Shown: positions 1-15,198 of the stretch, piece by piece | How the letters are laid out: the number at the start of each line of letters is the position of its first letter | How positions within the stretch are numbered: position 1 is the first letter of the stretch | DNA from: a virus | UHGV virus genome: UHGV-1642828 | Length of the DNA stretch: 16,115 nucleotides | Reading direction: 5' to 3' (one strand) | Position numbers and translations under genes: made by a program | Notes under the pieces: generated by a model | The model's input: the letters and a program-made list of their open reading frames with translations, nothing else | Told to the model about the DNA's origin: nothing | Databases searched by the model: none

Positions 1-45
1 ACACCTCTCTATTCGTCGGCAGCGTCAGATGTGTATAAGAGACAG
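1..45. other. Illumina Nextera adapter remnant (P5 tail ACAC + 8-nt index CTCTCTAT + TCGTCGGCAGCGTC + Tn5 mosaic end AGATGTGTATAAGAGACAG)
   Basis: Exact match to the recalled Nextera read-1/i5 adapter structure, and its reverse complement sits at the other contig end. Confidence 0.9.
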
Positions 46-428
46 ATGTAACAATCAATTTCTAAAGATACCCCCAACATTGCCAGACAACCGTCAATAA
101 ACCCTTCAGCTTTCTGCAGTCTGATAACAACCTGATTAAGTGATATCCCCAGTTTTACCCCCAACGCCCGTAATGTAACCCCATACACATAATACATTTC
201 CAGTAATTCGTATTGATACGGTTCCTTTTTCTTAAGAACTGTCATCGCAGAGCTAATGATCAGGCCATCGTCATCGCTACATTGCGGGCGGGATTTTACT
301 TTCGAAGGAATTAATCCCTTAAAACCTGCAGCAACAGATGACCATTCCACATCCTCGTGATTATTTGCCACCCATGCCCCCCAACGTTCAAGAACCATTT
401 GAATATCACGCATCAACTTTCTCCACAA
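46..428 (-). CDS. Phage antitermination protein Q-like (lambdoid late-gene antiterminator), 3' end truncated by adapter
   Basis: The ORF 9..428 translates to MWRKLMRDIQMVLERWGAWVANNHEDVEW...RLQKAEGFIDG, resembling recalled Q proteins of Qin/DLP12-type prophages. The last residues [11 protein letters not shown] are translated adapter, so the true C-terminus and stop are missing. It is the last gene of the minus-strand early operon, as expected for Q. Confidence 0.65.
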
Positions 429-430
429 AA

Positions 431-1426
431 TCAGGCCAGCACGCCTATTGCCAGCGCACGATCGATAAAACGAAATATCAGCTCCAGCTGGGAGCCATAC
501 TTCTCTTCAAATGCCACGGTATCCGCATGCAGCTCGTCGTGATGCTTTCTGCACAAAGGCAACACAAAGAGGTCATGCGCTTTTGTACCCATTCCCCCCT
601 GACCGTGGCCTATCAGGTGGTGGGGATCATCAGCAGGCTTTCCACAACATGCACACGGCTGTGTCTTAACCCAGCGCGTGTACTTTTCATTAACCCAGCG
701 GCGACGTTTTGGGCGTAACATAAAAGACTCCGGCGACTCCGGATCCACTTTCAGCGCCAGCACCTTTTTCGCCTTATCCTGGATGATGCTGGTGGCAGGA
801 ACCGAAGGCACAAGGTCACTTTCCCGGGTGACAGACGGCACAACAGGCTTCGGTAATCTCAGTGCCTTACGGGCTGCACTTTCCGGTAAGGCATCCGCCA
901 GGTCATTACGAATCAGCCACCAGCACAGTTCCGGCATTGTCACGGCATGGTTATCATCAAAACCGAGATCCAGACGGACTACAGACAACACCCAGCGGGC
1001 ACAGTTATCCGTTGCCATTGATTCCAGCCGTTCCGTGAACTGATCGCGCAGCTGGTTATCGCAGTGCCAGCACAGACGGATCGCGCCCGGCGCGTGTCGC
1101 ATTGTGGTCATGTTCTCGCTGTGCCAGTCGGAATGAGGCCACTGGCAGCCTTTTTCACGAAGTAACCAGCTTTCAAGACATTCCACGCCACCAGCACGAC
1201 GGATCACTGCCTCATTGCGGAACACGGCCCTAACGGCAGGATCATCCGCCAGCGGTTGTGATGCCGCCGGAACGGCACCACTGGCGAAAGATGAATAACG
1301 TTCCGGCTCAGGCTCCAGCAGGACACGCCCCTGCATAAACAGGGGCATCAGCTCTGAACCTGGTCTGAACAATACAATCCCCATACGCGGGGCTATTTCA
1401 GGGGTCAGTAGTGCTCTCACGGTCAC
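431..1426 (-). CDS. DUF968-family phage protein (YdfU-like) with C-terminal Cys/His-rich HNH-like zinc motif
   Basis: 331-aa ORF whose C-terminus reads CACCGKPADDPHHLIGHGQGGMGTKAHDLFVLPLCRKHHDELH. It sits immediately upstream of Q, as DUF968 genes do in Qin-like prophages. Its stop is 2 nt from the Q start. Confidence 0.6.
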   Translation of the reverse strand: MTVRALLTPEIAPRMGIVLFRPGSELMPLFMQGRVLLEPEPERYSSFASGAVPAASQPLADDPAVRAVFRNEAVIRRAGGVECLESWLLREKGCQWPHSDWHSENMTTMRHAPGAIRLCWHCDNQLRDQFTERLESMATDNCARWVLSVVRLDLGFDDNHAVTMPELCWWLIRNDLADALPESAARKALRLPKPVVPSVTRESDLVPSVPATSIIQDKAKKVLALKVDPESPESFMLRPKRRRWVNEKYTRWVKTQPCACCGKPADDPHHLIGHGQGGMGTKAHDLFVLPLCRKHHDELHADTVAFEEKYGSQLELIFRFIDRALAIGVLA

Positions 1427-1427
1427 C

Positions 1428-2237
1428 TCAATGAACGGTATCGAGCAGCTTTAACAGCTCAGGGAATCGGGATTCGAAGAAATGCGGCTGCGTCTCACGC
1501 GGATTTGCGGGACTGGTGATGTTCTTGCCGAACATGCAGCCTTTCGCCGTCAGCGACCAGAATTTTTTGATGTTGTTAATCCCGGTACGGCTGTATCGTT
1601 CGCGCTGCTCGACGATCCCCAGCTTCACCATCTGGTGATATGCCTGATTAGCCGTCAGGCGGATACCATACTGCTTCAGCAGTGCACTCAGCGACAGCGT
1701 CGGGCGGCTTGAGCCATCAGGCGCGTCAGCAGGTGCATCAATGGCATAGCGCGGTGCCAGATTCGGTAAGCCAACAGCCTCCTGGAGTTTCTGACAGGCC
1801 CCAAGCACAGATGAGTTAGACAGATTTAACTCCCGGCGCATAAAGTCCAGCAGAATCACGCCAGCCTGCATCTTGTCAGCAGCCTGTCCGGATAATTTTT
1901 CCGGTGCGCTGGTTACCATATCGAAAGTACGGATCACCTTCAGATGGAATGACGGGCTGATCCACATTGCATAGGCATACACCAGTTCCTTACAGACATA
2001 CGTTCCCCGTTCATTTCCCCCATGAATCACACTCACCGGGTCAACACCCAAATTCTGGGTGTTGGTTAATTCATGAACAAGCTCAACAGTTTGTTGGCTG
2101 GAAAGAAACTTTCCTGGCTCCTTGGTTCTGGCATTTGCACCAGATGCTACTGCTGCGCGATGCAGATCGTTCAGGCTGTAACGCCCATAAGCATCACGAC
2201 GAACTTCAATACCATCAATAACCATCAGATTATTCAT
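1428..2237 (-). CDS. KilA-N domain protein (antirepressor-like)
   Basis: 269-aa ORF; the N-terminal ~100 aa contain VIDGIEVRRDAYGRYSLNDLHRAA ... GTYVCKELVYAYAMWISPSFHLKVI, matching the recalled KilA-N signature (GTWVH..LA..FA.WISP.F). Its stop is 2 nt from the next start. Confidence 0.65.
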   Translation of the reverse strand: MNNLMVIDGIEVRRDAYGRYSLNDLHRAAVASGANARTKEPGKFLSSQQTVELVHELTNTQNLGVDPVSVIHGGNERGTYVCKELVYAYAMWISPSFHLKVIRTFDMVTSAPEKLSGQAADKMQAGVILLDFMRRELNLSNSSVLGACQKLQEAVGLPNLAPRYAIDAPADAPDGSSRPTLSLSALLKQYGIRLTANQAYHQMVKLGIVEQRERYSRTGINNIKKFWSLTAKGCMFGKNITSPANPRETQPHFFESRFPELLKLLDTVH

Positions 2238-2256
2238 ACTTCGTTTCTCCTCTTAA

Positions 2257-2646
2257 TCAGGCGGCTGCACCCGCCGTTTTCTCGTACTTACTGATAGTGA
2301 TTTCGACCTTCCCTTCCGGGATAACCGGCCCCCACTCCACCAGCATTCTTTTCACCTGGCTGTCGTCCACCCACACACCCGCGTGGGTCAGGGCGTCAAA
2401 CAGCGCCTTGTTATAGTTGTCCAGATCGCGAAGCCGGTTATCCGGAGGAAACAACACGATCTCCACTGAAGCTGGTGCCGACGTTGGTTTCGGCAGACGA
2501 CGTAACTGCTCAATGATGGCTGCACACGCTGCGCTCTGGAATTTTCGCCCCGCCTCGCTTATCAGGCTCTTACCAGCAAATGCCCCTTTGTTGGGGTGTC
2601 GCCAGTACGTGTTCACACTGGGCGGGAAAGGAAGGATCAACTTCAT
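2257..2646 (-). CDS. rusA: Crossover junction endodeoxyribonuclease RusA (Holliday junction resolvase)
   Basis: 129-aa ORF with LPFPPSVNTYWRH ... RDLDNYNKALFDALTHAGVWVDDSQV, very close to the E. coli RusA pattern (LPWPPSNNRYY ... [26 protein letters not shown]). Its start overlaps the upstream stop (ATGA). Confidence 0.85.
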   Translation of the reverse strand: MKLILPFPPSVNTYWRHPNKGAFAGKSLISEAGRKFQSAACAAIIEQLRRLPKPTSAPASVEIVLFPPDNRLRDLDNYNKALFDALTHAGVWVDDSQVKRMLVEWGPVIPEGKVEITISKYEKTAGAAA

Positions 2647-2969
2647 ACTTTCAAGCCCCTCTCATGTAACCAGTGGGCTGCACGCAACCTGGCGTTCTCC
2701 TCACCGGCAAGCAGTGCGCGGATGATACCGACCGCTTCGCTGTCGTCGTCCTTCACTGCGGTATGAAGCGTGATCCCCCGGGCCACGCCACGCTTTATCG
2801 TGATGACGCCTTTTTTCTCCAGTGCGCGAAGATGCTCCACCGCTGCATTCACTGAACGGTATCCCAGCATGGTTGCCACCTCCTGATTGGTTGGCGGGAA
2901 GCCACGTTCTTTCTGGTAAGAAATCAGCATATCCAGCACCTGCTGCTGGCATTGAGTTAACGTCGTCAT
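2643..2969 (-). CDS. LexA DNA-binding-domain protein without a peptidase domain
   Basis: 108-aa ORF whose N-terminal 70 aa align position by position with the LexA N-terminal winged helix (LT..QQ.V.D.I......G.PPT..E.A..LG.RS.NAA.EHL.AL..KGVI.I..G..RGI.L). There is no Ala-Gly/Ser/Lys S24 domain. It is translationally coupled to the methyltransferase upstream and rusA downstream. Confidence 0.6.
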   Translation of the reverse strand: MTTLTQCQQQVLDMLISYQKERGFPPTNQEVATMLGYRSVNAAVEHLRALEKKGVITIKRGVARGITLHTAVKDDDSEAVGIIRALLAGEENARLRAAHWLHERGLKV

Positions 2970-3619
2970 GCCGCCATCTCCCTGACCAGTTTTTCCGCCT
3001 GCTGGCGAACCTGCGCCAGAAACGCCTCACCACATGCCTCAAGTTCATCACGCCCGATGTAGCTGATTGCCGGTCCCTTCCAGGTCTTGTCGAAAACAGC
3101 AATAGCGCCAGCGAAGAAAGCGCCTGTCGGCACCTGCTTATCGTCCTTCGGGATAAACCAGGCAGGCAGTTCAAAACCAATACGCCCGCGAATAAAAGCA
3201 ATATGATCCGCATCTTCCGGCCACCACACTTCGCTGGTGGCAGCTTTGATCAGGAAAACATAGCGCCCGCCCTTATCACGCATGGCACTGGCATGTTTCA
3301 TGATGTAACGCATGCCGGTGATGTATTGCCCCTCATGCTGACTGGCGCGGCTGTATGGGGGATTACCAAAGGCAGCCCCTTTAAGCTCCGCAAGACGTTT
3401 TGACCAGTCATGCGCCAGCGCGTTGTCTTCCGCCGTGTAATACGCGGCACATTTGGCGTTATCACCGTCAGTGAACAGATCCAGAACAAACGGGCCAAAC
3501 AGGGTGTTAATTCCCCAGAAAATGTTGTCCGGCGTGCGCCACTGATCGCCCACTTCCTTCAGTTCATGGGCTGGTTTGTTCCGCAGTTCCACCAGCGCCT
3601 GGCAATATTTATTACTCAT
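2966..3619 (-). CDS. Phage DNA N6-adenine methyltransferase (Dam family)
   Basis: ORF with the FGNPPYS motif (NPPY catalytic motif IV of amino-methyltransferases). The longest ORF starts at 3652, but the ATG at 3619-3617 (MSNKYCQ...) overlaps the upstream stop as TAATG and is the more likely start. Confidence 0.7.
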   Translation of the reverse strand: MSNKYCQALVELRNKPAHELKEVGDQWRTPDNIFWGINTLFGPFVLDLFTDGDNAKCAAYYTAEDNALAHDWSKRLAELKGAAFGNPPYSRASQHEGQYITGMRYIMKHASAMRDKGGRYVFLIKAATSEVWWPEDADHIAFIRGRIGFELPAWFIPKDDKQVPTGAFFAGAIAVFDKTWKGPAISYIGRDELEACGEAFLAQVRQQAEKLVREMAA

Positions 3620-4113
3620 TAAGCCCCCACGTAATTCCCTGACAGATACCACTCTTCACCTGATGCAGCCCGCTTACTGCTTTTCCGTAAACACCGTTCA
3701 CGACGCGCCAGAAAATTGTTTCGTTCTGGCTGGGAGTGGCTTTCACGGAATGCCGCCATCCACACCGTTGCAGCACGACGGTATAAGCCCCTGGACTCCA
3801 GTTCTTCCGCCTGGCGGGTCAGGCACAAAATCACCCGCGGGTCGTTAGTGCCGACATAGAAATTGCGCACAGGTCTGGTTTCACGAACTGGTTGTGGTTC
3901 CGGATCCTGCGCTCTCTCAGTCAGGCGCTGGAAATGTCTGTGTGTATCTCCTTCACAACGGTGAGCCACACGACCACTCTGACGTAACTTGCTTGCTGAC
4001 TGCAGAACGCGCTGCCGTGAGTAACCTGCAAAAGCATCCGCAATGTCTCCGGAAGTACAGCCCGGATGGGCTTCAATGAATTTCTGAACGTCATTCAAAA
4101 GACTCATGCTCAC
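3619..4113 (-). CDS. Putative regulator: N-terminal winged-helix-like region plus C-terminal PerC-like motif
   Basis: 164-aa ORF. The C-terminal AEELESRGLYRRAATVWMAAF...RRERCLRK resembles the recalled PerC/Pch signature (A..LE..GLWRRAA..W ... R..CL). Its start overlaps the replication gene stop (ATGA). Confidence 0.4.
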   Translation of the reverse strand: MSMSLLNDVQKFIEAHPGCTSGDIADAFAGYSRQRVLQSASKLRQSGRVAHRCEGDTHRHFQRLTERAQDPEPQPVRETRPVRNFYVGTNDPRVILCLTRQAEELESRGLYRRAATVWMAAFRESHSQPERNNFLARRERCLRKSSKRAASGEEWYLSGNYVGA

Positions 4114-5051
4114 CCCCTGAATCCTGCCGGGATCTGGCTGTAGTCCACATTGTCGTAACTGGCTTTGAAGTACGGGTCTTCGCGTTTTTCTGTGTACGTG
4201 CTGACGGACGGCGATAAGCGCAGGGAAAGCTCATCCCATTTTTCCCGCAGCTTCGACGGGCTGAGCACGTTACGGCACCAGAACGGATCGCGGCTGACGC
4301 GGCTGTACATCTCGCAGATTTGTTTGTGAGTACGACCATCCTGCACACACATCAGGCGAATTTCGTTTGCCCAGGCTGTCCAGTTCGGTTCTTTGGGACG
4401 AACCACCTCGCCGTCACATTCGGCAGCCTGCTCGTACAGGGCGATGATTTTTTTCCAGAGCCACTGTGCGCAGGTCAAATCATCCTGCGTTCCCCACTGG
4501 CGCTTTTTAGGGCTGAATACAACCGCATCAGGATGGCAAGTTAAAAAATCCTGTTCAGCCGTCTGCGTGTCCGGTTGCGAAGCGTCCGGACGAGAAGGTT
4601 TTTTATCTGACGGATCATGTTTTGATTTTACTGACGGATCCCCGCCAGATTCTGACGGGTGAAAACCCGATTTTTTGCCAGATTTCGACGCATCAAATTT
4701 TGACGGGTCAGATTTTGATGCGTCAGATTTTGACGGGTCAGAATCTGACAGTTGAGAAAATGCCGCTGCCTGAAGCTTCGCAACGTTAAGCTGATAAACA
4801 TTCGACGCATTGCGGTTACCCTGGCGACGCGCCTTACGCGTTAACCAGCCTTCTGCTTCCAGCCGTGCGATAGCCGTTCTGACGGTGCTCATCCCCGCGC
4901 CAATCTGGCGGGCAATGGTTTCAATTGATGGCCAGCACATACCTTCGTCATTACTGAAATCAGCCAGGCGGGCCATAATTGCCACGCTGGATAATTTCAT
5001 ACCTGACGCTGCACAACCATCCCATACATAGCCGGTTAATTTAGTGCTCAT
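4110..5051 (-). CDS. Phage replication initiation protein (N-terminal HTH, Ser/Asp/Lys repeat linker, C-terminal domain)
   Basis: 313-aa ORF with an N-terminal HTH-like region (SIETIARQIGAGMSTVRTAIARLEAEGWL), a central DPSKSDASKSDPSKFDASKS repeat encoded by 15-bp tandem DNA repeats, and a conserved-looking C-terminal domain. It occupies the O-gene position after the cro/cII-like genes. Confidence 0.55.
   Translation of the reverse strand: MSTKLTGYVWDGCAASGMKLSSVAIMARLADFSNDEGMCWPSIETIARQIGAGMSTVRTAIARLEAEGWLTRKARRQGNRNASNVYQLNVAKLQAAAFSQLSDSDPSKSDASKSDPSKFDASKSGKKSGFHPSESGGDPSVKSKHDPSDKKPSRPDASQPDTQTAEQDFLTCHPDAVVFSPKKRQWGTQDDLTCAQWLWKKIIALYEQAAECDGEVVRPKEPNWTAWANEIRLMCVQDGRTHKQICEMYSRVSRDPFWCRNVLSPSKLREKWDELSLRLSPSVSTYTEKREDPYFKASYDNVDYSQIPAGFRG
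4602..4755. repeat. Iteron-like tandem repeats inside the replication gene (candidate origin)
   Basis: Four contiguous in-phase 15-bp units at 4681-4740 (GATTTCGACGCATCA, AATTTTGACGGGTCA, GATTTTGATGCGTCA, GATTTTGACGGGTCA), flanked by degenerate copies containing CTGACGG at 4605-4617, 4631-4640, 4651-4660 and 4741-4751. Confidence 0.5.
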
Positions 5052-5060
5052 GACCGACCC

Positions 5061-5399
5061 CTATTTCCCTGAATTTACGACGAAACTGTTCGAGCGGACT
5101 GAAGCATTCATGCTCATAGCCTTCACGGAGGTAGATAACACGTTGTGTTTCCGGCTCCCAACGAATGACTCTGACGGGCACTCAGTAGTGATCTTTGAAC
5201 CAGCGGTTAACTTGTTGCAAAGGACTGTCTCCTTCTGCCGGTTGAAATCACCCACAGCCCACTCGGCAAAGCTGTGGGTTACAATTTCCCTGTCACCTGG
5301 TACATTCACTGCATAGCAATACTCCACCTTCGCTTTTCCACCCGGTACAGGAAGCGCAATCAGTTGCGAGCGACGGTAGTGTGTTGTTAAACTGTTCAT
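5061..5399 (-). CDS. Hypothetical protein (small ORF between the YdaT-like and replication genes)
   Basis: 112-aa ORF whose start overlaps the ydaT-like stop (ATGA) and which ends 10 nt before the replication gene start. No family recognised. Confidence 0.4.
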
Positions 5400-5980
5400 G
5401 CGTTAGTTTCTCCACAGTCACGACACGCCACGGCGCCCGGAGCTGCACACTCGCGGGCGTCATTACTTTCTGAAATGCAAAAGATTTTGTAGACCAGTGC
5501 TGCATGCTCCTGCAGCTTCGAAATTGAGAGATACAGCTCGTCGTTAATTGCTGTCTTCTCATGCGGTTCCACCACACCGTCTTCGATTGCCGAACGAATC
5601 TGTCTGGAATAACTGCCAATCTGTTCAATGACTTCCAGCAGGCGCTTGTTAATATCGGCGTTGTCCACATCCTCGACGTCAGGAAGAGACACAAAGACGC
5701 CATTTGCAGACTGCGCCACAGCGTCAGCAATGAAGTGAGTTCCACCAGCACGTTGCAAAACCATTGCCAATCCCAGCGGGAAAATCTGATCGCCATCGGC
5801 ACGAAGGCGGTTAAATAATGCGTTCTCTGTTACATCCAGCCAGTCAGCAGCTTCAGCGTAACCACCCGGCAACGCCGCGATAGTTTTTCTGACAGCTTTC
5901 ACGTACCACTCAGGCTGTTTTTCTACTTTCCAGTGATGCTTACCCACGGCTATCTCCTTAAAACTGTGGTTACTTTCCAT
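5396..5980 (-). CDS. YdaT-like protein (cII-position regulator of Rac-type prophages)
   Basis: 194-aa ORF immediately downstream of and overlapping the YdaS/Cro-like gene, in the same arrangement as ydaS-ydaT in the Rac prophage. Assignment is by synteny and general resemblance only. Confidence 0.5.
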
Positions 5981-6218
5981 CTGATAAGTCTTTAATCTTT
6001 TGAAAAATATCTGGACGTAATTTTTCTTTTGATACGCCAGTGGTCATTTCAATAAATATCGAGAGTTTTGCAGGGGGACGCTTTTCTCTGTTCAACCAGT
6101 TCCAGACATGTTGTTGCTTTACTAAACGACCACTGCTGGCTGTGAGCTTCCGAGCCAATTCTGATTGACCACCAGCCAGAGCGATTGCCTCTGATAAGGC
6201 TAATTGCTCAGGTGTCAT
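5970..6218 (-). CDS. Cro-like HTH regulator (YdaS/DUF1019-like)
   Basis: 82-aa ORF, first gene transcribed divergently from cI. It contains GGQSELARKL ... RLVKQQHVWNWL ... LRPDIF, resembling recalled YdaS. A GGAGA Shine-Dalgarno lies 6 nt upstream of the ATG. Confidence 0.65.
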   Translation of the reverse strand: MTPEQLALSEAIALAGGQSELARKLTASSGRLVKQQHVWNWLNREKRPPAKLSIFIEMTTGVSKEKLRPDIFQKIKDLSDGK

Positions 6219-6355
6219 AGCTTTCTCCTATCTGTAAGTAGTAAAGTTGTTGATAACTTCGATTATACAACTACAACAACTTTTATCACAACTTTTAGAT
6301 GTTGGAAAGCTAAAACATAAAGTTGTAACCTCAATAAAAACGAGGGGGATATGTT
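6219..6355. promoter_or_regulatory. Divergent promoter/operator region (OR-like) between the cro-like gene and cI
   Basis: 137-bp AT-rich spacer with repeated AAGTTGT / ACAACTT half-sites (6244-6259 AAGTTGTTGATAACTT; 6288-6304 ACAACTTTTAGATGTTG; 6320-6326). On the minus strand there is a perfect -10 TATAAT (plus 6262-6267) with TTGTGA as -35 (plus 6286-6291, 18-bp spacer), reading toward the cro-like gene. A possible weak cI promoter lies toward 6356. Confidence 0.6.
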
Positions 6356-7042
6356 GTGAAAACATTGGCAGAAAGACTAAAAAGCGAAAGAGAAAAAGCA
6401 GGAATGAGTCAGGCGCAACTAGCTGAAAAAATTGGGCTTTCACAACAATCCGTAGCGAAAATCGAGAATGGAGAAACTCAACAGCCTCGGAAAATTAAAG
6501 AGATTGCTAAAGTGTTAGGGGTTTCTCAAAAGTGGTTGCAATTGGGCATTGAGGATAACGCGTCTTTCCCAGACCTTGTTGTAAAGGAGGCTGAAAGTAC
6601 AGCATTAGATCCTGACATTTTTGCAAACATTCCAGTCCTAGATGTCGAGTTATCAGCGGGTAATGGATGTTTGGCTGAAATAGTTGAATCAACTGTAGAC
6701 TGGTTCCCGCTAAGAAGGATTGATTTAAGAAAAGCTGGTGTATGTGTCTCCAATGCAAAGATCGTAAAAATTTGGGGCAATAGTTTACTACCTGTACTTA
6801 ACAATGGAGATTTTGTTGCTGTTGATGTTTCCCAAACGGTTCCTATTCGTGATGGGGATCTTTATGCCATACGTGATGGCGTATTACTTAGAGTTAAAAT
6901 ATTGATCAATTTACCTGACGGTGGTCTGATTCTAAGAAGTTTCAATAAAGATGAGTATCCAGATGAAATACTCACCTTCGAAGATAGGCGTTCAAGAATT
7001 CACGTTATAGGTAGAGTATTCTGGTCATCGCGCACTTGGTAA
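6356..7042 (+). CDS. cI: cI-type prophage repressor (HTH XRE domain + LexA-like S24 autopeptidase domain)
   Basis: 228-aa ORF with a GTG start preceded by GAGGGGGA. It has an N-terminal HTH (MSQAQLAEKIGLSQQSVAKIENGE), an Ala-Gly cleavage site (LSAGNG), a Ser in GNSLLP and a Lys in LRVKIL, which is the LexA/cI autocleavage architecture. Confidence 0.85.
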   Translation: MKTLAERLKSEREKAGMSQAQLAEKIGLSQQSVAKIENGETQQPRKIKEIAKVLGVSQKWLQLGIEDNASFPDLVVKEAESTALDPDIFANIPVLDVELSAGNGCLAEIVESTVDWFPLRRIDLRKAGVCVSNAKIVKIWGNSLLPVLNNGDFVAVDVSQTVPIRDGDLYAIRDGVLLRVKILINLPDGGLILRSFNKDEYPDEILTFEDRRSRIHVIGRVFWSSRTW

Positions 7043-7225
7043 TGCATCAAAAAACCTTCCTTCAGAAATTTAGTTACCATTATTACCCGCCTTTTCAATC
7101 TTCCTCCCGTGATTTGAGAGTTTCCAATCACGGAAGGAAAGTGTCCCTTGTGTAATTAAAAGCGCATCGTCCATACAACCTCCTTTTTTGATAACCCTTG
7201 CCCTCATTTCACATCCGTCAAAACC

Positions 7226-7290
7226 ACATAAAGTTGTTGACAACAACCAAAACAACAACTAGATTACAACTTAAAGATGTTGCAGTAACG
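7226..7290. promoter_or_regulatory. OL/PL-like operator-promoter for the plus-strand early operon
   Basis: Consensus -35 TTGACA at 7237-7242 and -10 TAGATT at 7260-7265 (17-bp spacer). A perfect 13-bp palindrome TTGTTGACAACAA (7235-7247) overlaps the -35, and the 17-bp element ACAACTTAAAGATGTTG (7266-7282) at the start site matches the OR-region copy at 15 of 17 positions. Confidence 0.55.
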
Positions 7291-7383
7291 AACAGGCAGG
7301 ACGCCCACGAAGTAGCCGCCGGTGGCGTATGAATGACCGGATGATTCGCTGACAGAAAACTTAGGTTGGGGGTAGAGGTTTAC

Positions 7384-7749
7384 ATGAATCATTTATTCAC
7401 ATGCTCATTTTGCGGAGCAACCGAACTGGGAGCGATAAAGATCGTCGCAAAAGGTGGTAAGGACGAACCTGCCATCTGTTCGGAATGCGTAGTCACATGT
7501 GTAGAAAAAATGATCCTGACTAAAAAATCAGAGGCTGAAAAACCAACCTCTGATAACGAAATAATATCAGTCGATAAAAAACTATTTAAAGAGCTTCTTC
7601 AGCTTGTCCTCAACCTTCCTGATTTCGGAAGTAAGCTGGCTGCTGTTGACATTGATAGTAGCTCCACATCGACAAGTGAAACTTTTGTTCGACTTGAGCC
7701 AAGCGATTTTCTTCTTCGTCTTAGTGCCGCACTTAGGGCATGCGGGTAA
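7384..7749 (+). CDS. Small protein with an N-terminal ClpX-type C4 zinc-finger motif
   Basis: Starts MNHLFTCSFCGATELGAIKIVAKGGKDEPAICSECVVTCVEKMI; compare the recalled ClpX N-domain [36 protein letters not shown]. GAGG lies 6 nt upstream of the ATG at 7384; the longer ORF from 7366 uses TTG and has no Shine-Dalgarno. It is the first gene after the PL-like promoter. Confidence 0.55.
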   Translation: MNHLFTCSFCGATELGAIKIVAKGGKDEPAICSECVVTCVEKMILTKKSEAEKPTSDNEIISVDKKLFKELLQLVLNLPDFGSKLAAVDIDSSSTSTSETFVRLEPSDFLLRLSAALRACG

Positions 7750-7872
7750 CGTAATTTCCTGGTTATCAAAAGCGCCCATAAACATCCCTCTTGGTTGTGT
7801 GAGAACACCAAGATACCACCGCGCCTGATGTGGTTAAAAGCAGGCTAAAGCAATAACAAGTAACTCCCTGTT

Positions 7873-7922
7873 CTGGCGGCCCGGTGTTTTCCCGTGTATT
7901 TCCGGTAACCGCCAGCCTTTTT
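7873..7922 (+). terminator. Candidate intrinsic terminator (tL1-like) between the first early gene and rdgC
   Basis: Inverted repeat CTGGCGG/CCGG (7873-7884) with CCGG/CCGCCAG (7902-7915) around a 17-nt loop, followed by CCTTTTTC (7916-7923). Confidence 0.4.
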
Positions 7923-8091
7923 CAGGGCACAACAGAAAAGGGCATCACCGGGCGACGGGCTCATAACCCAATCCACCCGGGCAAAAAGAAAGCGGTCTCT
8001 GCAAGCCGCCGACCAATGCAGGTGCCCTTCTCTGTTGTGTATGGAGAAACTAACTTTTTAGCGCCGGTGCAGAGGCGTTGAGGAACCGAGA

Positions 8092-9009
8092 ATGAACAAT
8101 CCGTTTTTCAAAAATATGTTGGTGTATCGCATTAATCGCGATTTCACCATCAACCAGGAAGAGCTGGAACAGCAGCTTGAACTATTTCGCTTCACTCCAT
8201 GCGGTAGCCAGGATATGGCAAAAACCGGTTGGGTATCACCACTTGGTCAGCTGTCAGATCGCTTGCATCACACTGTCAATAATCAAGTGTTGTTGGTTAT
8301 TCGCCGGGAAGAAAAAATACTGCCATCTCCTGTCATTGCTGAAGAACTGCGCAAGCGTGTGTCGCGTCTGGAATCCGATCAGGGGCGTCGCCTCAAAAAA
8401 ACTGAGAAAGATTCGCTGCGTGATGAAGTGTTGCACTCCCTGCTTCCTCGGGCGTTCTCCAAAAACTCGACTGTTAGTTTGTGGATCAACGTCACCGACG
8501 GTCTGATCATGGTTGATGCAGCCAGCGCTAAACGTGCCGAAGACTCACTGGCCCTGCTTCGTAAAACTCTCGGTTCTCTCCCGGTGGTACCGCTGACTAT
8601 GGAAACGCCGATCGAACTAACTATGACCGAATGGGTTCGTTCCGGTAGTGCGCCTGCTGGCTTTGGCCTGGGTGATGAAGCCGAACTGAAAGCTATTCTT
8701 GAAGATGGTGGTATTGGACGCTTTAAAAAACAGACTCTGGTCAGTGACGAAATTCATGTGCATCTGGAAGCTGGCAAAGTAGTTACAAAGCTGTCTATCG
8801 ACTGGCAACAGCGCATTCAGTTCGTTCTTTGCGATGACGGCAGCATCAAACGCCTTAAGTTCTCTAATGAGATTACAGAACAAAACGACGATATCGACCG
8901 TGAGGATGCGGCTCAGAGGTTCGACGCTGACTTTGTTCTGATGACCGGCGAGCTTATCTCTCTCATTAACGGATTAACAACCTCTCTCGGCGGCGAAGCC
9001 AAGCGATAA
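8092..9009 (+). CDS. rdgC: Recombination-associated protein RdgC homolog
   Basis: 305-aa ORF with long identities to E. coli RdgC ([117 protein letters not shown]). GAGGAA Shine-Dalgarno upstream. Confidence 0.9.
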
Positions 9010-9117
9010 ACACCAGGCAACAATTACCCCCATAAGCATGGGTTGGGTTGCTGCACGCTAAATTCAGCAATTCATTAATTTAATGGCGCGGTGCAGCGCG
9101 CCAATATGGAGAAAACC

Positions 9118-9657
9118 ATGAGCTACATTCAGACATTATCCGGCAAACATTTTAATTACCTCGATATCCAACAGGACGATATCGTGATCGAGGATATTGC
9201 TACCGCGTTGTCTCATATCTGCCGCTTTGCAGGGCATCTTCCTGAGTTTTACAGCGTCGGCCAGCATAGCGTTTTAACCAGCCATCTCGTTCCGCAGGAG
9301 TTTGCCTTAGAAGCACTGCTTCATGATGCCGCCGAAGCCTACCTGCAAGATATTCCCTCACCGCTTAAGCGCCTGTTACCGGATTACCAGGTGATCGAAG
9401 CTCGCGTAGACGCTGCTATTCGCCAGAAATTTGGCCTACCGACGGAGCAACACCCAACAGTGAAATATGCCGATCTGGTGATGCTCGCCAGCGAACGCCG
9501 CGATTTTGAGATTGACGAAGGTTCCGTGTGGCCATGCCTCGATGGCGTTGTCCCGACGGACCTATTCATCATCAATCCAGTTCGTCCAGGCCAGTCATAC
9601 GGCATGTTCATAAATCGCTTTAATGAGTTGATGGAGCAGCGTCAATGCGCCGCATGA
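9118..9657 (+). CDS. HD-domain phosphohydrolase
   Basis: Contains H...H (ALSHICRFAGH) followed about 35 aa later by HD (LLHDAAEAY), the metal-binding pattern of the HD superfamily. GGAGA lies 9 nt upstream of the ATG at 9118; the longest ORF starts at 9091. Confidence 0.5.
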   Translation: MSYIQTLSGKHFNYLDIQQDDIVIEDIATALSHICRFAGHLPEFYSVGQHSVLTSHLVPQEFALEALLHDAAEAYLQDIPSPLKRLLPDYQVIEARVDAAIRQKFGLPTEQHPTVKYADLVMLASERRDFEIDEGSVWPCLDGVVPTDLFIINPVRPGQSYGMFINRFNELMEQRQCAA

Positions 9658-9821
9658 AGGTAAAAGAACTCGTGGCGGAGGCGTTTGCCTCCGTGGCTGA
9701 ATTGCCACCAAAGCATGCATCGCTTATGCGCGAAGTCGCTACCAGGCTTGAAGCTACGTTCGCAGCATTAACCGAATCATTGGCGCAACTGGAACAGGAA
9801 CGTAAAGGTAAAACGCAATGA
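9654..9821 (+). CDS. Small hypothetical protein (55 aa), translationally coupled on both sides
   Basis: Not in the ORF track (below its length cutoff). ATG at 9654 overlaps the HD gene stop (ATGA) and its TGA overlaps the next gene's ATG at 9818 (ATGA). Translates MKVKELVAEAFASVAELPPKHASLMREVATRLEATFAALTESLAQLEQERKGKTQ. Confidence 0.35.
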   Translation: MKVKELVAEAFASVAELPPKHASLMREVATRLEATFAALTESLAQLEQERKGKTQ

Positions 9822-10072
9822 CCGTATTTGAATATCTCCAGGGCCACCCGAACGCCACCAGCGGTGAAATCGCAAGGGCGATGGGTAAAAAGACGCCAGC
9901 CGTAGCCAGCGCACTATCTCAGCTTTATGCAACAGGGAGAATTGTTAAGTCTGGCGCACGCGGTGGGATACCGACATACCGCGTCAATGATCTGCCGTTT
10001 GGATGCAGCAATAACTTAACGCTGATATTTAACCAGCTTCTGCGAAACGTCCGCAAAGGAGCAGCCCAATGA
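9818..10072 (+). CDS. Hypothetical small protein, possible winged-helix DNA-binding protein
   Basis: 84-aa ORF with a wHTH-like segment (ATSGEIARAMGKKTPAVASALSQLYATGRI); overlapping start/stop coupling with neighbours. Confidence 0.45.
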   Translation: MTVFEYLQGHPNATSGEIARAMGKKTPAVASALSQLYATGRIVKSGARGGIPTYRVNDLPFGCSNNLTLIFNQLLRNVRKGAAQ

Positions 10073-10386
10073 GCAAATTTACGGCATTACCAGTAGAACG
10101 CGACCAATACGGCTACTGGACTCACCCCGTCTATGAGCAATTTTGCGATGGTCGTGAATTTATCTCACCTGATGAGTTCAACGCCTGGCTGGATAAAAAC
10201 GGCCTCGAATGGACGGTAGTTTACCGGGATGAAGAAGACATCGATCCTGAAGTTGATGGTTACGATATTTCAGCCTGGCAGCCAGAATCGCCAGCCGGTG
10301 AAGGTTGGTTTGTCGGTTCAATTCACAACACCGAAGATGGCGCGGTATGCATCTGGTTACGTAACGTTGAAGGCGGTGCAGCATGA
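10069..10386 (+). CDS. Hypothetical protein
   Basis: 105-aa acidic ORF, translationally coupled (overlapping stops/starts) within the early-left operon. Confidence 0.45.
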   Translation: MSKFTALPVERDQYGYWTHPVYEQFCDGREFISPDEFNAWLDKNGLEWTVVYRDEEDIDPEVDGYDISAWQPESPAGEGWFVGSIHNTEDGAVCIWLRNVEGGAA

Positions 10387-11141
10387 CAGTCCATACACTG
10401 AAGCAATGCCGCCCGGACCAAGAAGAAACCGAGTATTTCTGGAAGTTGTTTCATGCGGCACAACGGAATGACGCTCGCTGGAACGGTAGTGAAATCAGCA
10501 TTATCGCCGATGAACTATCCCGGACGGATTTAGATCGTAATCAAAAACTGTTTCTTCTCCGTGCCTGGCAAGTGCTGGTAGACGACAAAGGTGGATTCGG
10601 GCGCTTGATGGGTGCCTTTGATACTTACGTCTACAACATGCAGGACCCTGATGATGACTGCGTAGCCTGGAAGCCTGAACTGGCTAAGCTGCTACAGGAT
10701 GGCAATCTGTTTGATGTTGTGCTGACGGCATATCAGGAGGCCTGCCATGAGGGGATCGTTAATTGGGAGGCAGCGGTATCTCTTTCTGAGGAAAACGTAG
10801 AACTGAAGCGCAAACTCTACGCAGCAGAGAATCAAATAGCAGAACTGGAGGCGCGGACGTTCAATCCTGCAATTCTAGATGTGATAGCAGAGCGCCAGCG
10901 GCAGAAAGCCGTTGAGGGCTGGACGTCTGAGCATGACGACGCCTATCAAAACAGTGAGCTGGCAGATGCTGCAGCTTGCTATGCGATTAACGCACACAAT
11001 CAAGGCCTCTCAACGCCAGCGCATTGGCCGTGGGCTCCTGATTGGTGGAAGCAATCTGGGCCGCGTCGTGACCTTGTGAAAGCTGGCGCACTTATTCTGG
11101 CCGAAATTGAACGCATAGACCGCCAGGAGGCCGCCCAATGA
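10383..11141 (+). CDS. Hypothetical protein (Trp-rich C-terminal region, coiled-coil segment)
   Basis: 252-aa ORF, coupled to neighbours; contains AENQIAELEAR and HWPWAPDWWK. No family recognised. Confidence 0.5.
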   Translation: MTVHTLKQCRPDQEETEYFWKLFHAAQRNDARWNGSEISIIADELSRTDLDRNQKLFLLRAWQVLVDDKGGFGRLMGAFDTYVYNMQDPDDDCVAWKPELAKLLQDGNLFDVVLTAYQEACHEGIVNWEAAVSLSEENVELKRKLYAAENQIAELEARTFNPAILDVIAERQRQKAVEGWTSEHDDAYQNSELADAAACYAINAHNQGLSTPAHWPWAPDWWKQSGPRRDLVKAGALILAEIERIDRQEAAQ

Positions 11142-11530
11142 GCAACATCAACAAACGCGCAACAGAGATGCTGATTGAAAACGGAGTGCTGGTTGCCGAC
11201 ACGCTGAGGCGTTTGGCTGATAACGAAATCGACTCCGATTACTTTGCTATTTGCCACACAAACGAAAACGGAACTGAAATTGAATGCGAGCTGGCAATTA
11301 CAGATTACGCACGCCAATCTGCTGGAATCGTTGATGATCTGGTAAATGCGCTGGAAGCCGCAGAGAAGCGCATTGCAGAACTGGAAGCGCGGGAAATATC
11401 GCTCCCAGAACTTAGCAGCATGCTTCATCGAACAGATTTTCACGAGGATTACCAAACGGTAATGGCATACAAAGTTTCTGAGGTCATCGCTGCAATCCGC
11501 GCCGCTGGCATTCGCATCAAAGGAGAGTGA
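11138..11530 (+). CDS. Hypothetical protein
   Basis: 130-aa ORF, coupled; shares the EKRIAELEAR heptad-like motif with the preceding gene. Confidence 0.5.
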   Translation: MSNINKRATEMLIENGVLVADTLRRLADNEIDSDYFAICHTNENGTEIECELAITDYARQSAGIVDDLVNALEAAEKRIAELEAREISLPELSSMLHRTDFHEDYQTVMAYKVSEVIAAIRAAGIRIKGE

Positions 11531-11531
11531 T

Positions 11532-11966
11532 ATGGCGTTAACACACCGCGAACTCTGTCAGATTGCGTACAAGTTCCTTAAGCGCAACGGGTTCAAGGTT
11601 TGTTTTCATGACCGCTTTATAGCTGTAACCAGTACCGGAGAACAGCCAGATGCTATGGGATTCAGAAATTCAGCATCATGCCTGATAGAGGCGAAATGTT
11701 CTCGTGCTGACTTGTTGGCAGATAGAAAAAAGCGTTTTCGTAAAAATCCGTCTCTTGGAATGGGCGACTGGCGATTCTTTATTAGTGAGCCGGGAATTAT
11801 TTCAATTGAGGATTTACCACCTGGCTGGGGATTACTTCACGTTGTTAACGGAAGAGTACGGAAAGTGCATGGGTGCCCAAGGGTAATTGCTGTTGGGGTA
11901 ATCCTGACGATAAGCCATTTACTGGAAATAAGCAGGTTGAATGCGATTACATGTTATCTGCATTAA
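11532..11966 (+). CDS. Hypothetical protein with a possible PD-(D/E)xK nuclease-like motif; the 3' end may be frameshifted
   Basis: 144-aa ORF containing GEQPDAMGF...CLIEAKCS (a D ... ExK arrangement). A second reading frame opening after the stop at 11846-11848 encodes a plausible C-terminus (...GNCCWGNPDDKPFTGNKQVECDYMLSALRRMELRGHLNEIYDGVIVNKKEGNAA) and ends at 12044-12046 in an ATGA overlap with the next gene. Confidence 0.4.
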   Translation: MALTHRELCQIAYKFLKRNGFKVCFHDRFIAVTSTGEQPDAMGFRNSASCLIEAKCSRADLLADRKKRFRKNPSLGMGDWRFFISEPGIISIEDLPPGWGLLHVVNGRVRKVHGCPRVIAVGVILTISHLLEISRLNAITCYLH

Positions 11967-12042
11967 GGCGCATGGAGTTGAGAGGGCACCTTAATGAAAT
12001 ATATGACGGTGTAATTGTTAATAAGAAAGAAGGAAACGCGGC

Positions 12043-12744
12043 ATGATCACTATTACCAAAGAGCGACTGCTGACAATCAAGCAGTGGCGCGAAACATACG
12101 GACCTGGTAGCAACGTTGTACTGCCAGCAGAAGAAGCGGAAGAACTGGCACGAATTGCTCTGGCATCGCTGGAAGCAGAGCCTATTGGTGAGGTTTCAGA
12201 GAAGCGACTCGGCCTTGTTATGGATGGAACGGTAGACCTTGGCGGGAAATCAACTTATCGCATCATTAAGGGAGAAAAAGCGATGAAGTTGTTGCCGCTG
12301 GGGACGAAGTTTTATGCCGCCCCTCCAGTGCCAGTAGTACCGGAAGAAAAACCAATGCCTAATCCTCTTAGCATGTACGCGGTTGATGCTTTTGCCGCTA
12401 TTGCAGAGGTGAGAGGCTGGAACGCCTGCCGTGCCGCTATGCTTCAGGGTAAATCCGAACAACCACAAAACGCACAACAAAATATTCCGGAAAATATTCA
12501 CGGTGGCAACTCTCCGGTAACTCCGGATGGTTGGATAAGCTGTAGTGATCGAATGCCGGAAAAGAATCAGAACGTGCTTATTTCAGTGAATTTCGATAGC
12601 TCTCTGGTTGAACCGCTAATATGCTCCGCACGCTATACCGGAAGCACCTTTCGGCGCGGAGATGCAACGATTAAGCCGGGTAATGGTATTGAGCAAGCAA
12701 CTCACTGGATGCCGCTACCGGAACCGCCGCAGGAGGTGAAGTAA
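12043..12744 (+). CDS. DUF551-like phage protein
   Basis: 233-aa ORF whose C-terminal part (GWISCSDRMPEKNQNVLISV ... ATHWMPLPEPPQEV) matches the recalled DUF551 signature ending in W.PLPEPP. Confidence 0.5.
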   Translation: MITITKERLLTIKQWRETYGPGSNVVLPAEEAEELARIALASLEAEPIGEVSEKRLGLVMDGTVDLGGKSTYRIIKGEKAMKLLPLGTKFYAAPPVPVVPEEKPMPNPLSMYAVDAFAAIAEVRGWNACRAAMLQGKSEQPQNAQQNIPENIHGGNSPVTPDGWISCSDRMPEKNQNVLISVNFDSSLVEPLICSARYTGSTFRRGDATIKPGNGIEQATHWMPLPEPPQEVK

Positions 12745-13316: not shown

Positions 13317-13352
13317 TTTTCCCGGGTGCAGCCGGTTTTGATGGAGAAAATT

Positions 13353-13634: not shown

Positions 13635-13636
13635 AG

Positions 13637-13663
13637 AAAAAACCCGCCTGAAGGCGGGTTTTC
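13637..13663. terminator. Bidirectional rho-independent terminator
   Basis: AAAAAA-CCCGCC-TGAA-GGCGGG-TTTTC: a perfect 6-bp GC stem (13643-13648 / 13653-13658) with a 4-nt loop, flanked by an A-run and a T-run. It terminates both the plus-strand operon and the convergent small minus-strand gene. Confidence 0.75.
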
Positions 13664-13681
13664 AAAAAGCACCAGCTATGA

Positions 13682-15162: not shown

Positions 15163-15198
15163 TGTAATGCCTTCCATACCATCGAAGAACTTCACATA

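What the first reader, a model, noticed from the sequence alone, without database searches (positions are those of the whole stretch)
2643..2969. LexA DNA-binding domain without a peptidase domain, inside the nin-like region
The first 70 residues match the LexA N-terminal domain nearly position by position, but there is no autocleavage domain. Such a protein could bind SOS boxes or a phage operator in a way RecA cannot relieve, or form mixed dimers. It is coupled between the methyltransferase and rusA.
Basis: partly seen in the sequence, partly recalled or inferred. Interest (0 to 1): 0.6.

Follow-up and report, generated by a model that had tools for sequence, protein, structure and literature searches.

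The report
Phage LexA look-alike lacking self-cleavage domain
A lambdoid prophage gene encodes the DNA-binding half of the bacterial DNA-damage repressor LexA joined to a short helical tail instead of the self-cleaving half; the family is common and already annotated, its function is untested, and it could plausibly let the phage override the host damage response.

Summary
Window 2643-2969 (minus strand) encodes a 108-aa protein. Residues 1-68 are a full LexA winged-helix domain: Pfam PF01726 E 2.9e-19, 50% identical to E. coli LexA, rmsd 1.3 Å to the LexA-DNA complex. There is no S24 peptidase domain. In its place are a short acidic linker and a two-helix hairpin, conserved down to 40% identity, that probably mediates dimerisation.

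The gene is under purifying selection (13 synonymous to 1 non-synonymous change against SfII). It is translationally coupled between a phage Dam methylase and RusA in the early rightward operon. It occurs in 2233 of 5426 complete E. coli genomes, in SfII and in Stx2 phages, and is already annotated "LexA family transcriptional regulator" (PHROG 362).

In sister lineages (Klebsiella, Raoultella, Salmonella, Enterobacter) the gene follows a canonical SOS-box promoter, often with DinI or a phage RecA. This supports an SOS-linked role.

Two HTH residues common in true LexAs (R28, E44) are always replaced, the recognition helix varies between subgroups, and the window has no SOS box. The DNA target is therefore unresolved. 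Mixed dimers with LexA are unlikely, because LexA dimerises through the domain this protein lacks.

It is a new member of a known kind and moderately interesting.

The parts
2643..2969 (-). Coding sequence of the 108-aa stand-alone LexA-type DNA-binding protein ('mini-LexA'), stop codon included
   Evidence: ORF list; Pfam PF01726 E 2.9e-19; PHROG 362 E 1.6e-59 over the full length; pN/pS 0.02-0.2 against SfII and two other copies
2766..2969 (-). Residues 1-68: LexA-type winged helix-turn-helix (helices 6-22, 28-35, 40-52; wing strands 56-58 and 66-68). Recognition helix reads S39-V-N41-A42-A-V44-E45-H
   Evidence: AF2 model; Foldseek best hit is the LexA-DNA complex 3jso_B, rmsd 1.3 Å; LexA contact residues from PMC3091678
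2748..2765 (-). Residues 69-74: variable acidic linker, low model confidence
   Evidence: pLDDT below 50 at residues 71-73; length and sequence vary in the family
2646..2747 (-). Residues 75-108: conserved two-helix hairpin (helices 75-87 and 93-103) replacing the S24 domain; inferred dimerisation module. Its first helix still aligns to the LexA cleavage-site region (LLAGE against VAAGE)
   Evidence: AF2 models of this protein and of a 43%-identical Klebsiella relative show the same hairpin. Positions 79, 80, 82, 83, 86, 87, 93, 97, 100 and 101 are 91-100% hydrophobic in 123 distinct family sequences. HMMER alignment to LexA residues 75-86
2966..2969 (-). ATGA overlap of the Dam stop codon and the mini-LexA start codon (translational coupling)
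2643..2646 (-). ATGA overlap of the mini-LexA stop codon and the rusA start codon (translational coupling)
2966..3652 (-). Upstream neighbour: phage N6-adenine methyltransferase (Dam family)
   Evidence: Pfam PF05869 E 6.2e-46
2257..2646 (-). Downstream neighbour: RusA Holliday-junction resolvase
   Evidence: Pfam PF05866 E 9.1e-15
6262..6291 (-). PR-like promoter (TTGTGA-18-TATAAT) upstream of cro. It is the only strong consensus promoter upstream of the gene on its strand, and no terminator-like site on that strand lies between it and the gene
   Evidence: consensus scan only; function inferred
6356..7042 (+). Prophage CI repressor (HTH_3 plus Peptidase_S24). It is RecA-cleavable by family membership and controls PR, and hence expression of the mini-LexA
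   Evidence: Pfam HTH_3 E 1.2e-15 and Peptidase_S24 E 9.5e-14
9..428 (-). Q antiterminator at the end of the same operon; the ORF runs into the adapter sequence at the contig end
   Evidence: Pfam PF06530 E 6.9e-48; adapter

Best explanation
The gene encodes a RecA-insensitive, LexA-derived transcription factor. It has a complete LexA winged-helix DNA-binding domain, a short flexible linker, and a conserved 30-residue helical hairpin. The hairpin takes the place of the S24 peptidase/dimerisation domain and most likely makes the protein a homodimer. In this prophage the gene sits in the early rightward (PR) operon, so the protein is made only after the S24-type CI repressor has been cleaved or after infection. 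That is when host LexA is being destroyed. In sister lineages it is instead transcribed from a promoter carrying a canonical SOS box, so it is again made when LexA falls. The most likely action is binding to LexA-type (CTGT-containing) operators, with host and phage SOS boxes as the leading candidates. This would re-impose repression that RecA* cannot relieve, damping or shutting off SOS-controlled genes during lytic development. Shown here: the fold and homology, absence of the cleavage domain, purifying selection, operon position, and SOS wiring in relatives. Inferred: dimerisation through the tail, the DNA target, and repression rather than activation.
For: The domain is LexA-type: PF01726 over its full length, 50% identity and rmsd 1.3 Å to LexA in its DNA complex. 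Four of the five helix-3 DNA-contact residues listed for E. coli LexA are kept (S39, N41, A42, E45; PMC3091678), and the wing motif R64-G65-I66 is invariant. No S24 domain is present. The tail is conserved to 40% identity, carries a two-faced hydrophobic pattern, and is predicted as a hairpin in two independent models. The gene shows purifying selection and occurs in 2233 of 5426 complete E. coli genomes. It lies in an uninterrupted PR operon under an S24-type CI. Eight copies from six subgroup-B loci (Klebsiella L001-L003, L014 and L016; Raoultella L015; Salmonella L011; Enterobacter L012) have an SOS box of 21-27 bits just upstream of a unit made of a phrog_1813 small ORF followed by the mini-LexA. 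The same model gave 0 hits of 18 bits or more in 2.45 Mb of shuffled sequence. The unit is preceded by DinI in five copies and by a RecA homologue in one. There is precedent: the isolated LexA N-terminal domain keeps some SOS-box binding and repression, and must be removed by ClpXP for SOS induction (PMC10584840). LexA N-terminal domains also form their own interface on the operator (PMC3159453).
Against: R28 and E44 form the residue pair in 10 of 12 S24-containing LexAs sampled, but in 0 of 129 family members; the family has N/V, Q/T, I/N, Y/F or L/L instead. E44 is listed as a DNA contact. Helix 3 differs between subgroups (SVNAAVEH, SPNAANDH, SPNAATDM, SSNAVLLH and others), although the enterobacterial SOS box is constant. 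The 16-kb window has no site of 8 bits or more with the SOS-box model and no exact CTGT-N8-ACAG. The SOS boxes upstream of relatives are most simply explained as host LexA sites, not sites for this protein. The spacing that the tail would impose on a dimer is unknown. The SOS-box model was built from 20 boxes recalled from memory. No experimental data on this family were found.
Confidence: 0.45

Rival explanations
1. It is a phage-specific regulator with its own operator, not the SOS box. It would switch a phage promoter on or off during lytic growth, as GIL01 gp6 (a truncated LexA homologue) activates the late promoter P3.
For: gp6 sets a precedent: a LexA N-terminal homologue that binds a distinct palindrome and activates transcription (PMC6182141). 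R28 and E44 are replaced throughout the family, and helix 3 diversifies between subgroups in the way phage specificity types do. No SOS box lies in the window. The gene always sits a few genes upstream of Q.
Against: No enriched or repeated CTGT/ACAG palindrome at any spacing from 0 to 20 was found in the window, two complete phages or two related loci; the only convincing sites are N8 SOS boxes. Intergenic palindromes in the closest complete prophage are terminators, the OR operators, or an unrelated TTATCCC/GGGATAA set. The operon is compact, with almost no intergenic DNA. The gene is repeatedly linked to SOS components (DinI, RecA, SOS boxes). There is no detectable sequence similarity to gp6.
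Confidence: 0.33
2. The helical tail is a protein-interaction module rather than a homodimerisation module. The protein would tether or sequester a partner at DNA. Candidate partners are the co-transcribed phrog_1813 protein in relatives, RecA, ClpX or RNA polymerase.
For: The tail is as well conserved as the DNA-binding domain and has more hydrophobic surface than a hairpin needs for itself. In subgroup B there is strict pairing with a conserved 75-96-aa ORF. The same prophage encodes a ClpX zinc-finger-like protein and RdgC.
Against: The window and the other subgroup-A phages lack the phrog_1813 partner upstream; a methylase sits there instead. No tool available here could test any interaction. 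Most winged-helix regulators with added helices use them to dimerise: the Foldseek secondary hits are MntR, MarR and DtxR types, all with poor rmsd.
Confidence: 0.1
3. It antagonises host LexA. It would occupy half-sites or form mixed complexes without repressing, so that it induces or prolongs SOS.
For: On the operator the two LexA N-terminal domains form an extensive interface (PMC3159453), so mixed occupancy of one box cannot be excluded.
Against: LexA homodimerises through its C-terminal domain (PMC6590174), which this protein lacks. The gene co-occurs with DinI, which damps SOS (role of DinI as stated in PMC7556043). An SOS inducer would be redundant at the time the protein is made.
Confidence: 0.07
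4. It is a decaying remnant of a captured lexA gene with no function.
For: Similarity to LexA runs on to the cleavage-site region and then stops. Many truncated or frame-shifted singletons exist in the databases.
Against: pN/pS is 0.02-0.2. Full-length 108-aa clusters have 2527, 782 and 374 member sequences. Both the tail and the synteny are conserved across genera at 40-50% identity.
Confidence: 0.02

Closest known systems
E. coli LexA (SOS repressor; PDB 1lea, 3jso; TIGR00498)
   Same: The N-terminal winged helix-turn-helix is homologous and aligns without gaps (residues 2-70, 50% identity, rmsd 1.3 Å). S39, N41, A42, E45 and the wing motif R64-G65-I66 are kept. Vestigial similarity reaches the cleavage-site region.
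   Different: It has no S24 peptidase/dimerisation domain, and no conserved Ala-Gly cleavage site across the family. R28 and E44 are replaced. A helical hairpin tail is added. It is encoded by a prophage early operon, not the lexA-dinF locus.
LexA(1-84) autocleavage fragment and non-cleavable LexA(Ind-) mutants
   Same: The fragment is a LexA DNA-binding domain without a working cleavage function. It retains some SOS-box binding and repression (PMC10584840).
   Different: The natural fragment is a transient product removed by ClpXP. This protein is a selected, stand-alone gene product with its own C-terminal module.
Bacillus phage GIL01 gp6 (PMC6182141)
   Same: It is a phage-encoded truncated LexA homologue consisting of the DNA-binding domain, made early and acting during the lytic switch of an SOS-controlled phage.
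   Different: gp6 is 66 aa with no tail. It shows no BLASTP similarity to this protein. It comes from a tectivirus of a Gram-positive host, and it is an activator with a defined palindrome at the late promoter. No such site was found here.
Phage- and plasmid-borne SOS modulators (DinI-like proteins, RdgC, PsiB)
   Same: These are accessory genes of mobile elements that tune the host RecA/LexA circuit. DinI sits directly upstream of the mini-LexA in the Klebsiella/Raoultella relatives, and RdgC lies in this window.
   Different: They act on RecA filaments, not on DNA operators, and are unrelated in fold.
PHROG 362 / RefSeq 'LexA family transcriptional regulator' (e.g. SfII_44, WP_000210159.1)
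   Same: This is the same family: a full-length match (E 1.6e-59) and identical synteny in SfII, Stx2a and Stx2c phages and mEp460.
   Different: None. The name is an annotation by homology; no functional test was found.

Membership tests
Canonical LexA (TIGR00498 equivalog) | N-terminal LexA-type winged helix-turn-helix | tested here: met
   PF01726 1-65 of 65, E 2.9e-19; 1lea E 6.5e-16; 3jso_B rmsd 1.3 Å
Canonical LexA (TIGR00498 equivalog) | C-terminal S24 peptidase domain with the Ser119/Lys156 dyad, which is also the dimerisation domain | tested here: not met
   The protein ends at residue 108. No PF00717 hit. TIGR00498 is matched only over profile positions 1-91 of 203
Canonical LexA (TIGR00498 equivalog) | Ala84-Gly85 self-cleavage site | tested here: not met
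   A88-G89 aligns to it in this copy. However, position 89 is G in only 80 of 123 distinct family sequences (N, D, R or E otherwise), and there is no catalytic domain
Canonical LexA (TIGR00498 equivalog) | Score above the curated family cut-off | tested here: not met
   70.5 bits against a cut-off of 110.95
Canonical LexA (TIGR00498 equivalog) | HTH residues R28 and E44, the usual pair in true LexAs | tested here: not met
   The pair is N28/V44 here. R/E occurs in 10 of 12 S24-containing homologues and in 0 of 129 tail-family members
Canonical LexA (TIGR00498 equivalog) | Binds CTGT-N8-ACAG SOS boxes as a dimer | not testable with these tools
   Only residue conservation and genomic context could be examined
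Stand-alone LexA_DNA_bind phage proteins (PHROG 362) | Full-length match to the family profile | tested here: met
   phrog_362 E 1.6e-59, residues 1-108 to profile 1-106 of 106
Stand-alone LexA_DNA_bind phage proteins (PHROG 362) | Encoded in the early/nin region of lambdoid (pro)phages, upstream of RusA, DUF968 and Q | tested here: met
   Window; 51 phage records; Cronobacter, Klebsiella, Salmonella and Enterobacter loci
GIL01 gp6-type LexA-homologue activators | LexA N-terminal domain only, no S24 domain | tested here: met
GIL01 gp6-type LexA-homologue activators | Sequence relationship to gp6; about 66 aa with nothing beyond the wing | tested here: not met
   No BLASTP alignment at E up to 100. 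This protein carries an extra 40-residue linker plus hairpin
GIL01 gp6-type LexA-homologue activators | Own palindromic site overlapping the -35 element of a late promoter; activates transcription | tested here: inconclusive
   No candidate site found, but the late promoter region lies outside the window and the specificity is unknown
CI-type phage repressors (HTH_3 plus S24) | Cro/CI-type HTH with an S24 cleavage domain, at the immunity locus | tested here: not met
   A separate gene (6356..7042 +) plays that role

The most novel reading that the evidence does not exclude
Lambdoid prophages present in about 40% of sequenced E. coli genomes, including Stx2a and Stx2c phages and Shigella SfII, carry a RecA-proof SOS off-switch. 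It is a dimeric mini-LexA made as soon as the prophage is derepressed, or as soon as host LexA falls. It would re-occupy SOS boxes and silence the LexA regulon during lytic growth. The silenced genes would include error-prone polymerases, SulA, SOS toxins, colicins and LexA-controlled antirepressors of rival prophages. The effect would shape mutagenesis, toxin release and competition between prophages.
Probability: 0.3. Interest if true: 0.65.

Novelty: new member of a known kind. Interest (0 to 1): 0.4.

Why it matters
The SOS response drives prophage induction, Shiga-toxin release, colicin production and stress-induced mutagenesis. A phage-encoded LexA look-alike that RecA cannot inactivate would be a direct viral handle on that circuit. 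The family is very common: 2233 of 5426 complete E. coli genomes, Stx2 phages and SfII, with relatives in Klebsiella, Salmonella, Cronobacter and Enterobacter. It is apparently absent from the K-12 CPS-53 remnant (from memory, not checked here), which may explain why no functional study was found. Relatives sit behind SOS-box promoters next to DinI or a phage RecA, so the SOS link is now concrete and cheap to test. If the protein instead proves to be an ordinary phage-specific regulator, its value is mainly better annotation.

Tried and rejected
1. SOS boxes in the window. There is no exact CTGT-N8-ACAG. Ten one-mismatch sites were found against 5.4 expected, and 8 of 200 shuffles reached that count. 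No site reached 8 bits with the SOS-box model.

2. Other spacings. CTGT-N0..20-ACAG is not enriched in the window, L007, L008, L004 or L001. Only the N8 sites look like real boxes.

3. Intergenic palindromes in the closest complete prophage (L010). These gave terminators, the OR operators and an unrelated TTATCCC/GGGATAA set. No candidate operator emerged.

4. Defence-system assignment. PADLOC gave only a marginal CARF-region hit (E 3.6e-4), rejected as a generic winged-helix match.

5. Tail-only Pfam search. The only hit was a sub-threshold NIL-domain match (E 0.011), rejected.

6. Trans-cleavage or pseudo-substrate idea, based on LLAGE resembling VAAGE. Rejected because the Gly is not conserved in the family.

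7. gp6 homology. No BLASTP alignment.

8. Literature. Seven of the nine full-text searches targeted this family and found no study of it. The LexA-DNA structure paper and Neher et al. 2003 were not held.

9. Tool failures. The search for related loci on the family alignment failed for lack of a conserved stretch. The afdb50 fold library was unavailable. No homodimer or protein-DNA structure prediction was possible.

Full report
**Observation**

The ORF is at window 2643..2969 on the minus strand, starts with ATG and encodes 108 aa. It matches Pfam LexA_DNA_bind from end to end (E 2.9e-19, 69 bits against a cut-off of 23.7). It aligns without gaps to residues 2-70 of E. coli LexA (1lea, E 6.5e-16). 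An AlphaFold2 model built on 24 family sequences (mean pLDDT 79) superposes on LexA in its operator complex (3jso_B) at rmsd 1.3 Å over 68 columns with 50% identity.

There is no Peptidase_S24 hit. The NCBIfam lexA equivalog is matched only over profile positions 1-91 of 203, at 70.5 bits against a cut-off of 110.95. The start codon overlaps the stop of a Dam-family methyltransferase (ATGA at 2966-2969). The stop overlaps the start of rusA (ATGA at 2643-2646).

**Anatomy of the protein**

- Residues 1-68 form the LexA winged helix-turn-helix (helices 6-22, 28-35 and 40-52; wing strands 56-58 and 66-68).
- Residues 69-74 are a variable acidic linker with low model confidence.
- Residues 75-103 form two helices (75-87 and 93-103) with pLDDT about 86.

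The first tail helix still aligns to the LexA cleavage-site region (LLAGE against VAAGE). This suggests descent from a full-length LexA truncated just after the hinge. The Gly is not conserved in the family, so a cleavage site is not a family feature.

The tail is conserved in relatives down to 40% identity. In 123 distinct family sequences, positions 79, 80, 82, 83, 86, 87, 93, 97, 100 and 101 are 91-100% hydrophobic, and A97 is invariant. That is more buried surface than a lone hairpin needs. I infer a four-helix-bundle homodimer, but could not model it. A second AF2 model, of a 43%-identical 130-aa Klebsiella relative, gives the same architecture plus a disordered N-terminal extension.

**The gene is real, selected and common**

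Comparisons among the window copy, phage vB_EcoM-720R4, SfII and the closest complete genome give 3-13 synonymous against 1-2 non-synonymous differences, so pN/pS is 0.02-0.2. The 327-bp gene is found in 2233 of 5426 complete E. coli genomes, mostly at 95-99% identity. A 1.5-kb query spanning it and its neighbours matched 51 phage records, including SfII, Stx2a and Stx2c phages and mEp460.

It is annotated 'LexA family transcriptional regulator', 'LexA-like protein' or 'transcriptional repressor'. It is a full-length member of PHROG 362 (E 1.6e-59). The family extends to Citrobacter, Salmonella, Hafnia, Cronobacter, Klebsiella, Raoultella, Enterobacter, Atlantibacter and Kosakonia. Stand-alone LexA N-terminal domains of 65-150 aa are also common among predicted phage structures.

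**Context and expression in the window**

The window is a lambdoid early region. An S24-type CI repressor (6356..7042 +) faces Cro (5970..6218 -). The rightward operon then runs on the minus strand through:

- a CII-like gene;
- an O-like replication gene;
- PerC/YfdN;
- Dam;
- the mini-LexA;
- RusA;
- a KilA-N protein;
- DUF968;
- Q.

A PR-like promoter lies at 6262-6291. No terminator-like site on that strand lies between it and the gene, and no separate consensus promoter lies in front of the gene (consensus scans only). I infer that the protein is made only when CI is inactivated or on infection.

**Family-wide context**

There are two wiring modes.

Subgroup A comprises the window, E. coli phages, Cronobacter and a metagenomic relative. 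The gene is translationally coupled behind a DNA methyltransferase and followed by RusA, an ANT or KilA-N gene, DUF968 and Q. There is no SOS box upstream.

Subgroup B comprises proteins of 118-135 aa that are 40-43% identical to the window protein. A rho-independent terminator (seen in L011, L012 and L014) or a moron is followed by a promoter carrying a canonical SOS box. Next comes DinI (optionally) or, in one lineage, a full RecA homologue. Then come a conserved 75-96-aa ORF (phrog_1813) and the mini-LexA.

| Locus | Origin | SOS box (bits) | Gene after the box |
|---|---|---|---|
| L001-L003 | Klebsiella | 27.0 | DinI |
| L014 | Klebsiella-type | 22.4 | RecA homologue |
| L015 | Raoultella | 27.0 | DinI |
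| L016 | K. oxytoca | 24.6 | DinI |
| L011 | Salmonella | 26.1 | none |
| L012 | Enterobacter | 21.3 | none |

The scoring model was built from 20 E. coli SOS boxes that I recalled from memory, so absolute scores are rough. It did recover the two boxes of the host lexA gene in L010, although those two boxes were in its training set. It gave no hit of 18 bits or more in 2.45 Mb of shuffled phage sequence. In both wiring modes the protein appears when LexA and CI are being cleaved. In subgroup B it keeps company with known SOS modulators.

**What it might bind**

Of the five helix-3 residues listed as DNA contacts of E. coli LexA (S39, N41, A42, E44, E45; PMC3091678), the window protein keeps four; position 44 is Val. 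The wing motif R64-G65-I66 is invariant.

Against simple SOS-box binding:

- The residue pair R28/E44 is present in 10 of 12 S24-containing homologues sampled and absent from all 129 tail-family members. It is replaced by N/V, Q/T, I/N, Y/F, L/L and similar pairs.
- Helix 3 differs between subgroups: SVNAAVEH, SPNAANDH, SPNAATDM, SSNAVLLH, SANGAFEH, SANAIAEH and SPNAAAEH. All the hosts share one SOS box.
- The upstream SOS boxes of subgroup B are canonical whatever the helix type, so they are most simply host LexA sites.

The window has no SOS box. Complete relatives do carry strong ones. One lies at the 5' end of a late-region N6/N4 methyltransferase downstream of Q: L007 and L010 at 22.2 bits, L011 at 19.8 and L014 at 20.4. 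Another lies inside the linker-coding part of SfII cI at 26.7 bits. No alternative palindrome emerged.

**Mechanism and rivals**

The best-supported reading (0.45) is a RecA-insensitive, tail-dimerised LexA-type regulator made on induction. It would act at LexA-like operators, with SOS boxes as the leading candidates, to re-impose repression. The isolated LexA N-terminal domain retains some SOS-box binding and repression and has to be cleared by ClpXP (PMC10584840). LexA N-terminal domains also make their own interface on the operator (PMC3159453). A stable N-terminal domain with its own dimeriser is therefore a plausible repressor.

- Main rival (0.33): a phage-specific regulator with a diverged operator, as for GIL01 gp6, which activates a late promoter (PMC6182141).
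- Tail as a partner-binding module: 0.10.
- Antagonist of LexA: 0.07. This is disfavoured because LexA dimerises through the C-terminal domain (PMC6590174).
- Decaying remnant: 0.02. This is refuted by the selection data.

**Comparison with what is known, and novelty**

The protein is not a LexA. It fails the S24 domain, cleavage-site, family cut-off and R28/E44 tests. It is a member of the annotated family of stand-alone LexA-domain phage proteins (PHROG 362). The only functionally characterised analogue I found is gp6. That protein is unrelated at BLASTP level, has no tail and comes from a tectivirus. I found no paper on the enterobacterial family.

I rate it a new member of a known kind. 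The existence and naming of the family are already known. The new points here are the conserved tail, the R28/E44 signature and the SOS-box/DinI/RecA linkage in relatives. Interest is moderate (0.4): the result is not surprising to a specialist, but the family is widespread, occurs in medically relevant phages and is directly testable.

Noticed in passing
window 1-45 and 16072-16115: Both contig ends are untrimmed Nextera adapter (TCGTCGGCAGCGTCAGATGTGTATAAGAGACAG plus index, and its reverse complement). The Q ORF 9..428 reads into it, giving the artefactual ...[11 protein letters not shown] end. Matches to the closest genome cover only 46-16071.
   Followed up: yes
window 7366-7749 (+) and 8092-9009 (+): The leftward operon encodes a ClpX C4 zinc-finger-like protein (26 bits, just under the Pfam cut-off of 27) and a full-length RdgC homologue (E 6e-116). 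Host RdgC is known, from memory, to inhibit RecA functions. Together with the S24-type CI, RusA and the mini-LexA, this prophage carries several genes that touch the RecA/LexA/ClpX axis.
   Followed up: partly
L001-L003 4385-5393; L011 4561-5357; L012 4560-5408; L014 3536-5393; L015 4386-5393; L016 4387-5393: There is a conserved SOS-box-controlled unit in Klebsiella, Raoultella, Salmonella and Enterobacter prophages. It consists of an SOS box, then DinI or a 361-aa phage RecA homologue or nothing, then a phrog_1813 small ORF of unknown function, then the mini-LexA. The roughly 40-nt spacer between the small ORF and the mini-LexA (GGCCTGAACAACC...ACCTGCTGCGCC.CGGAGA) is conserved at the DNA level across genera.
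   Followed up: partly
L008 (Shigella phage SfII) 29167-29186: A perfect SOS box (TACTGTATATAAAAACAGTA on the cI strand, 26.7 bits) lies inside the linker-coding region of the SfII cI gene, between the HTH and S24 domains. Its function is unknown; an internal LexA-controlled promoter or a roadblock are possibilities.
   Followed up: no
L007 22133-22152; L010 13646-13665; L011 7739-7758; L014 7942-7961: A strong SOS box (20-22 bits) sits at or just before the start of a late-region N6/N4 DNA methyltransferase downstream of Q. This is seen in E. coli, Salmonella and Klebsiella-type prophages that also carry the mini-LexA. It suggests a LexA-regulated methylase moron.
   Followed up: partly
L010 (E. 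coli O68:H12 strain 97.3) 29471-34133: The closest complete relative of this prophage is integrated at a dusA remnant, about 4 kb from the host lexA-dinF operon. The right-hand end of the window (DUF2713 gene, 15199-15945) is probably host DNA. No integrase is annotated at this end.
   Followed up: no
L010 9394-9427 and 11237-11285: Clustered palindromes of the form TTATCC(C)-N6-8-GGGATAA occur in two late-region intergenic gaps. They look like operators for an unidentified regulator.
   Followed up: no
proteins P0133, P0134, P0148, P0151, P0152 and others: Several database proteins of 140-350 aa contain two tandem LexA-type DNA-binding domains. This would mimic a dimer within a single chain.
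   Followed up: no
L011 8794-10357: In the Salmonella locus, an AcrVA2-like gene and a cas1 gene lie immediately beyond the prophage late-region methylase.
   Followed up: no
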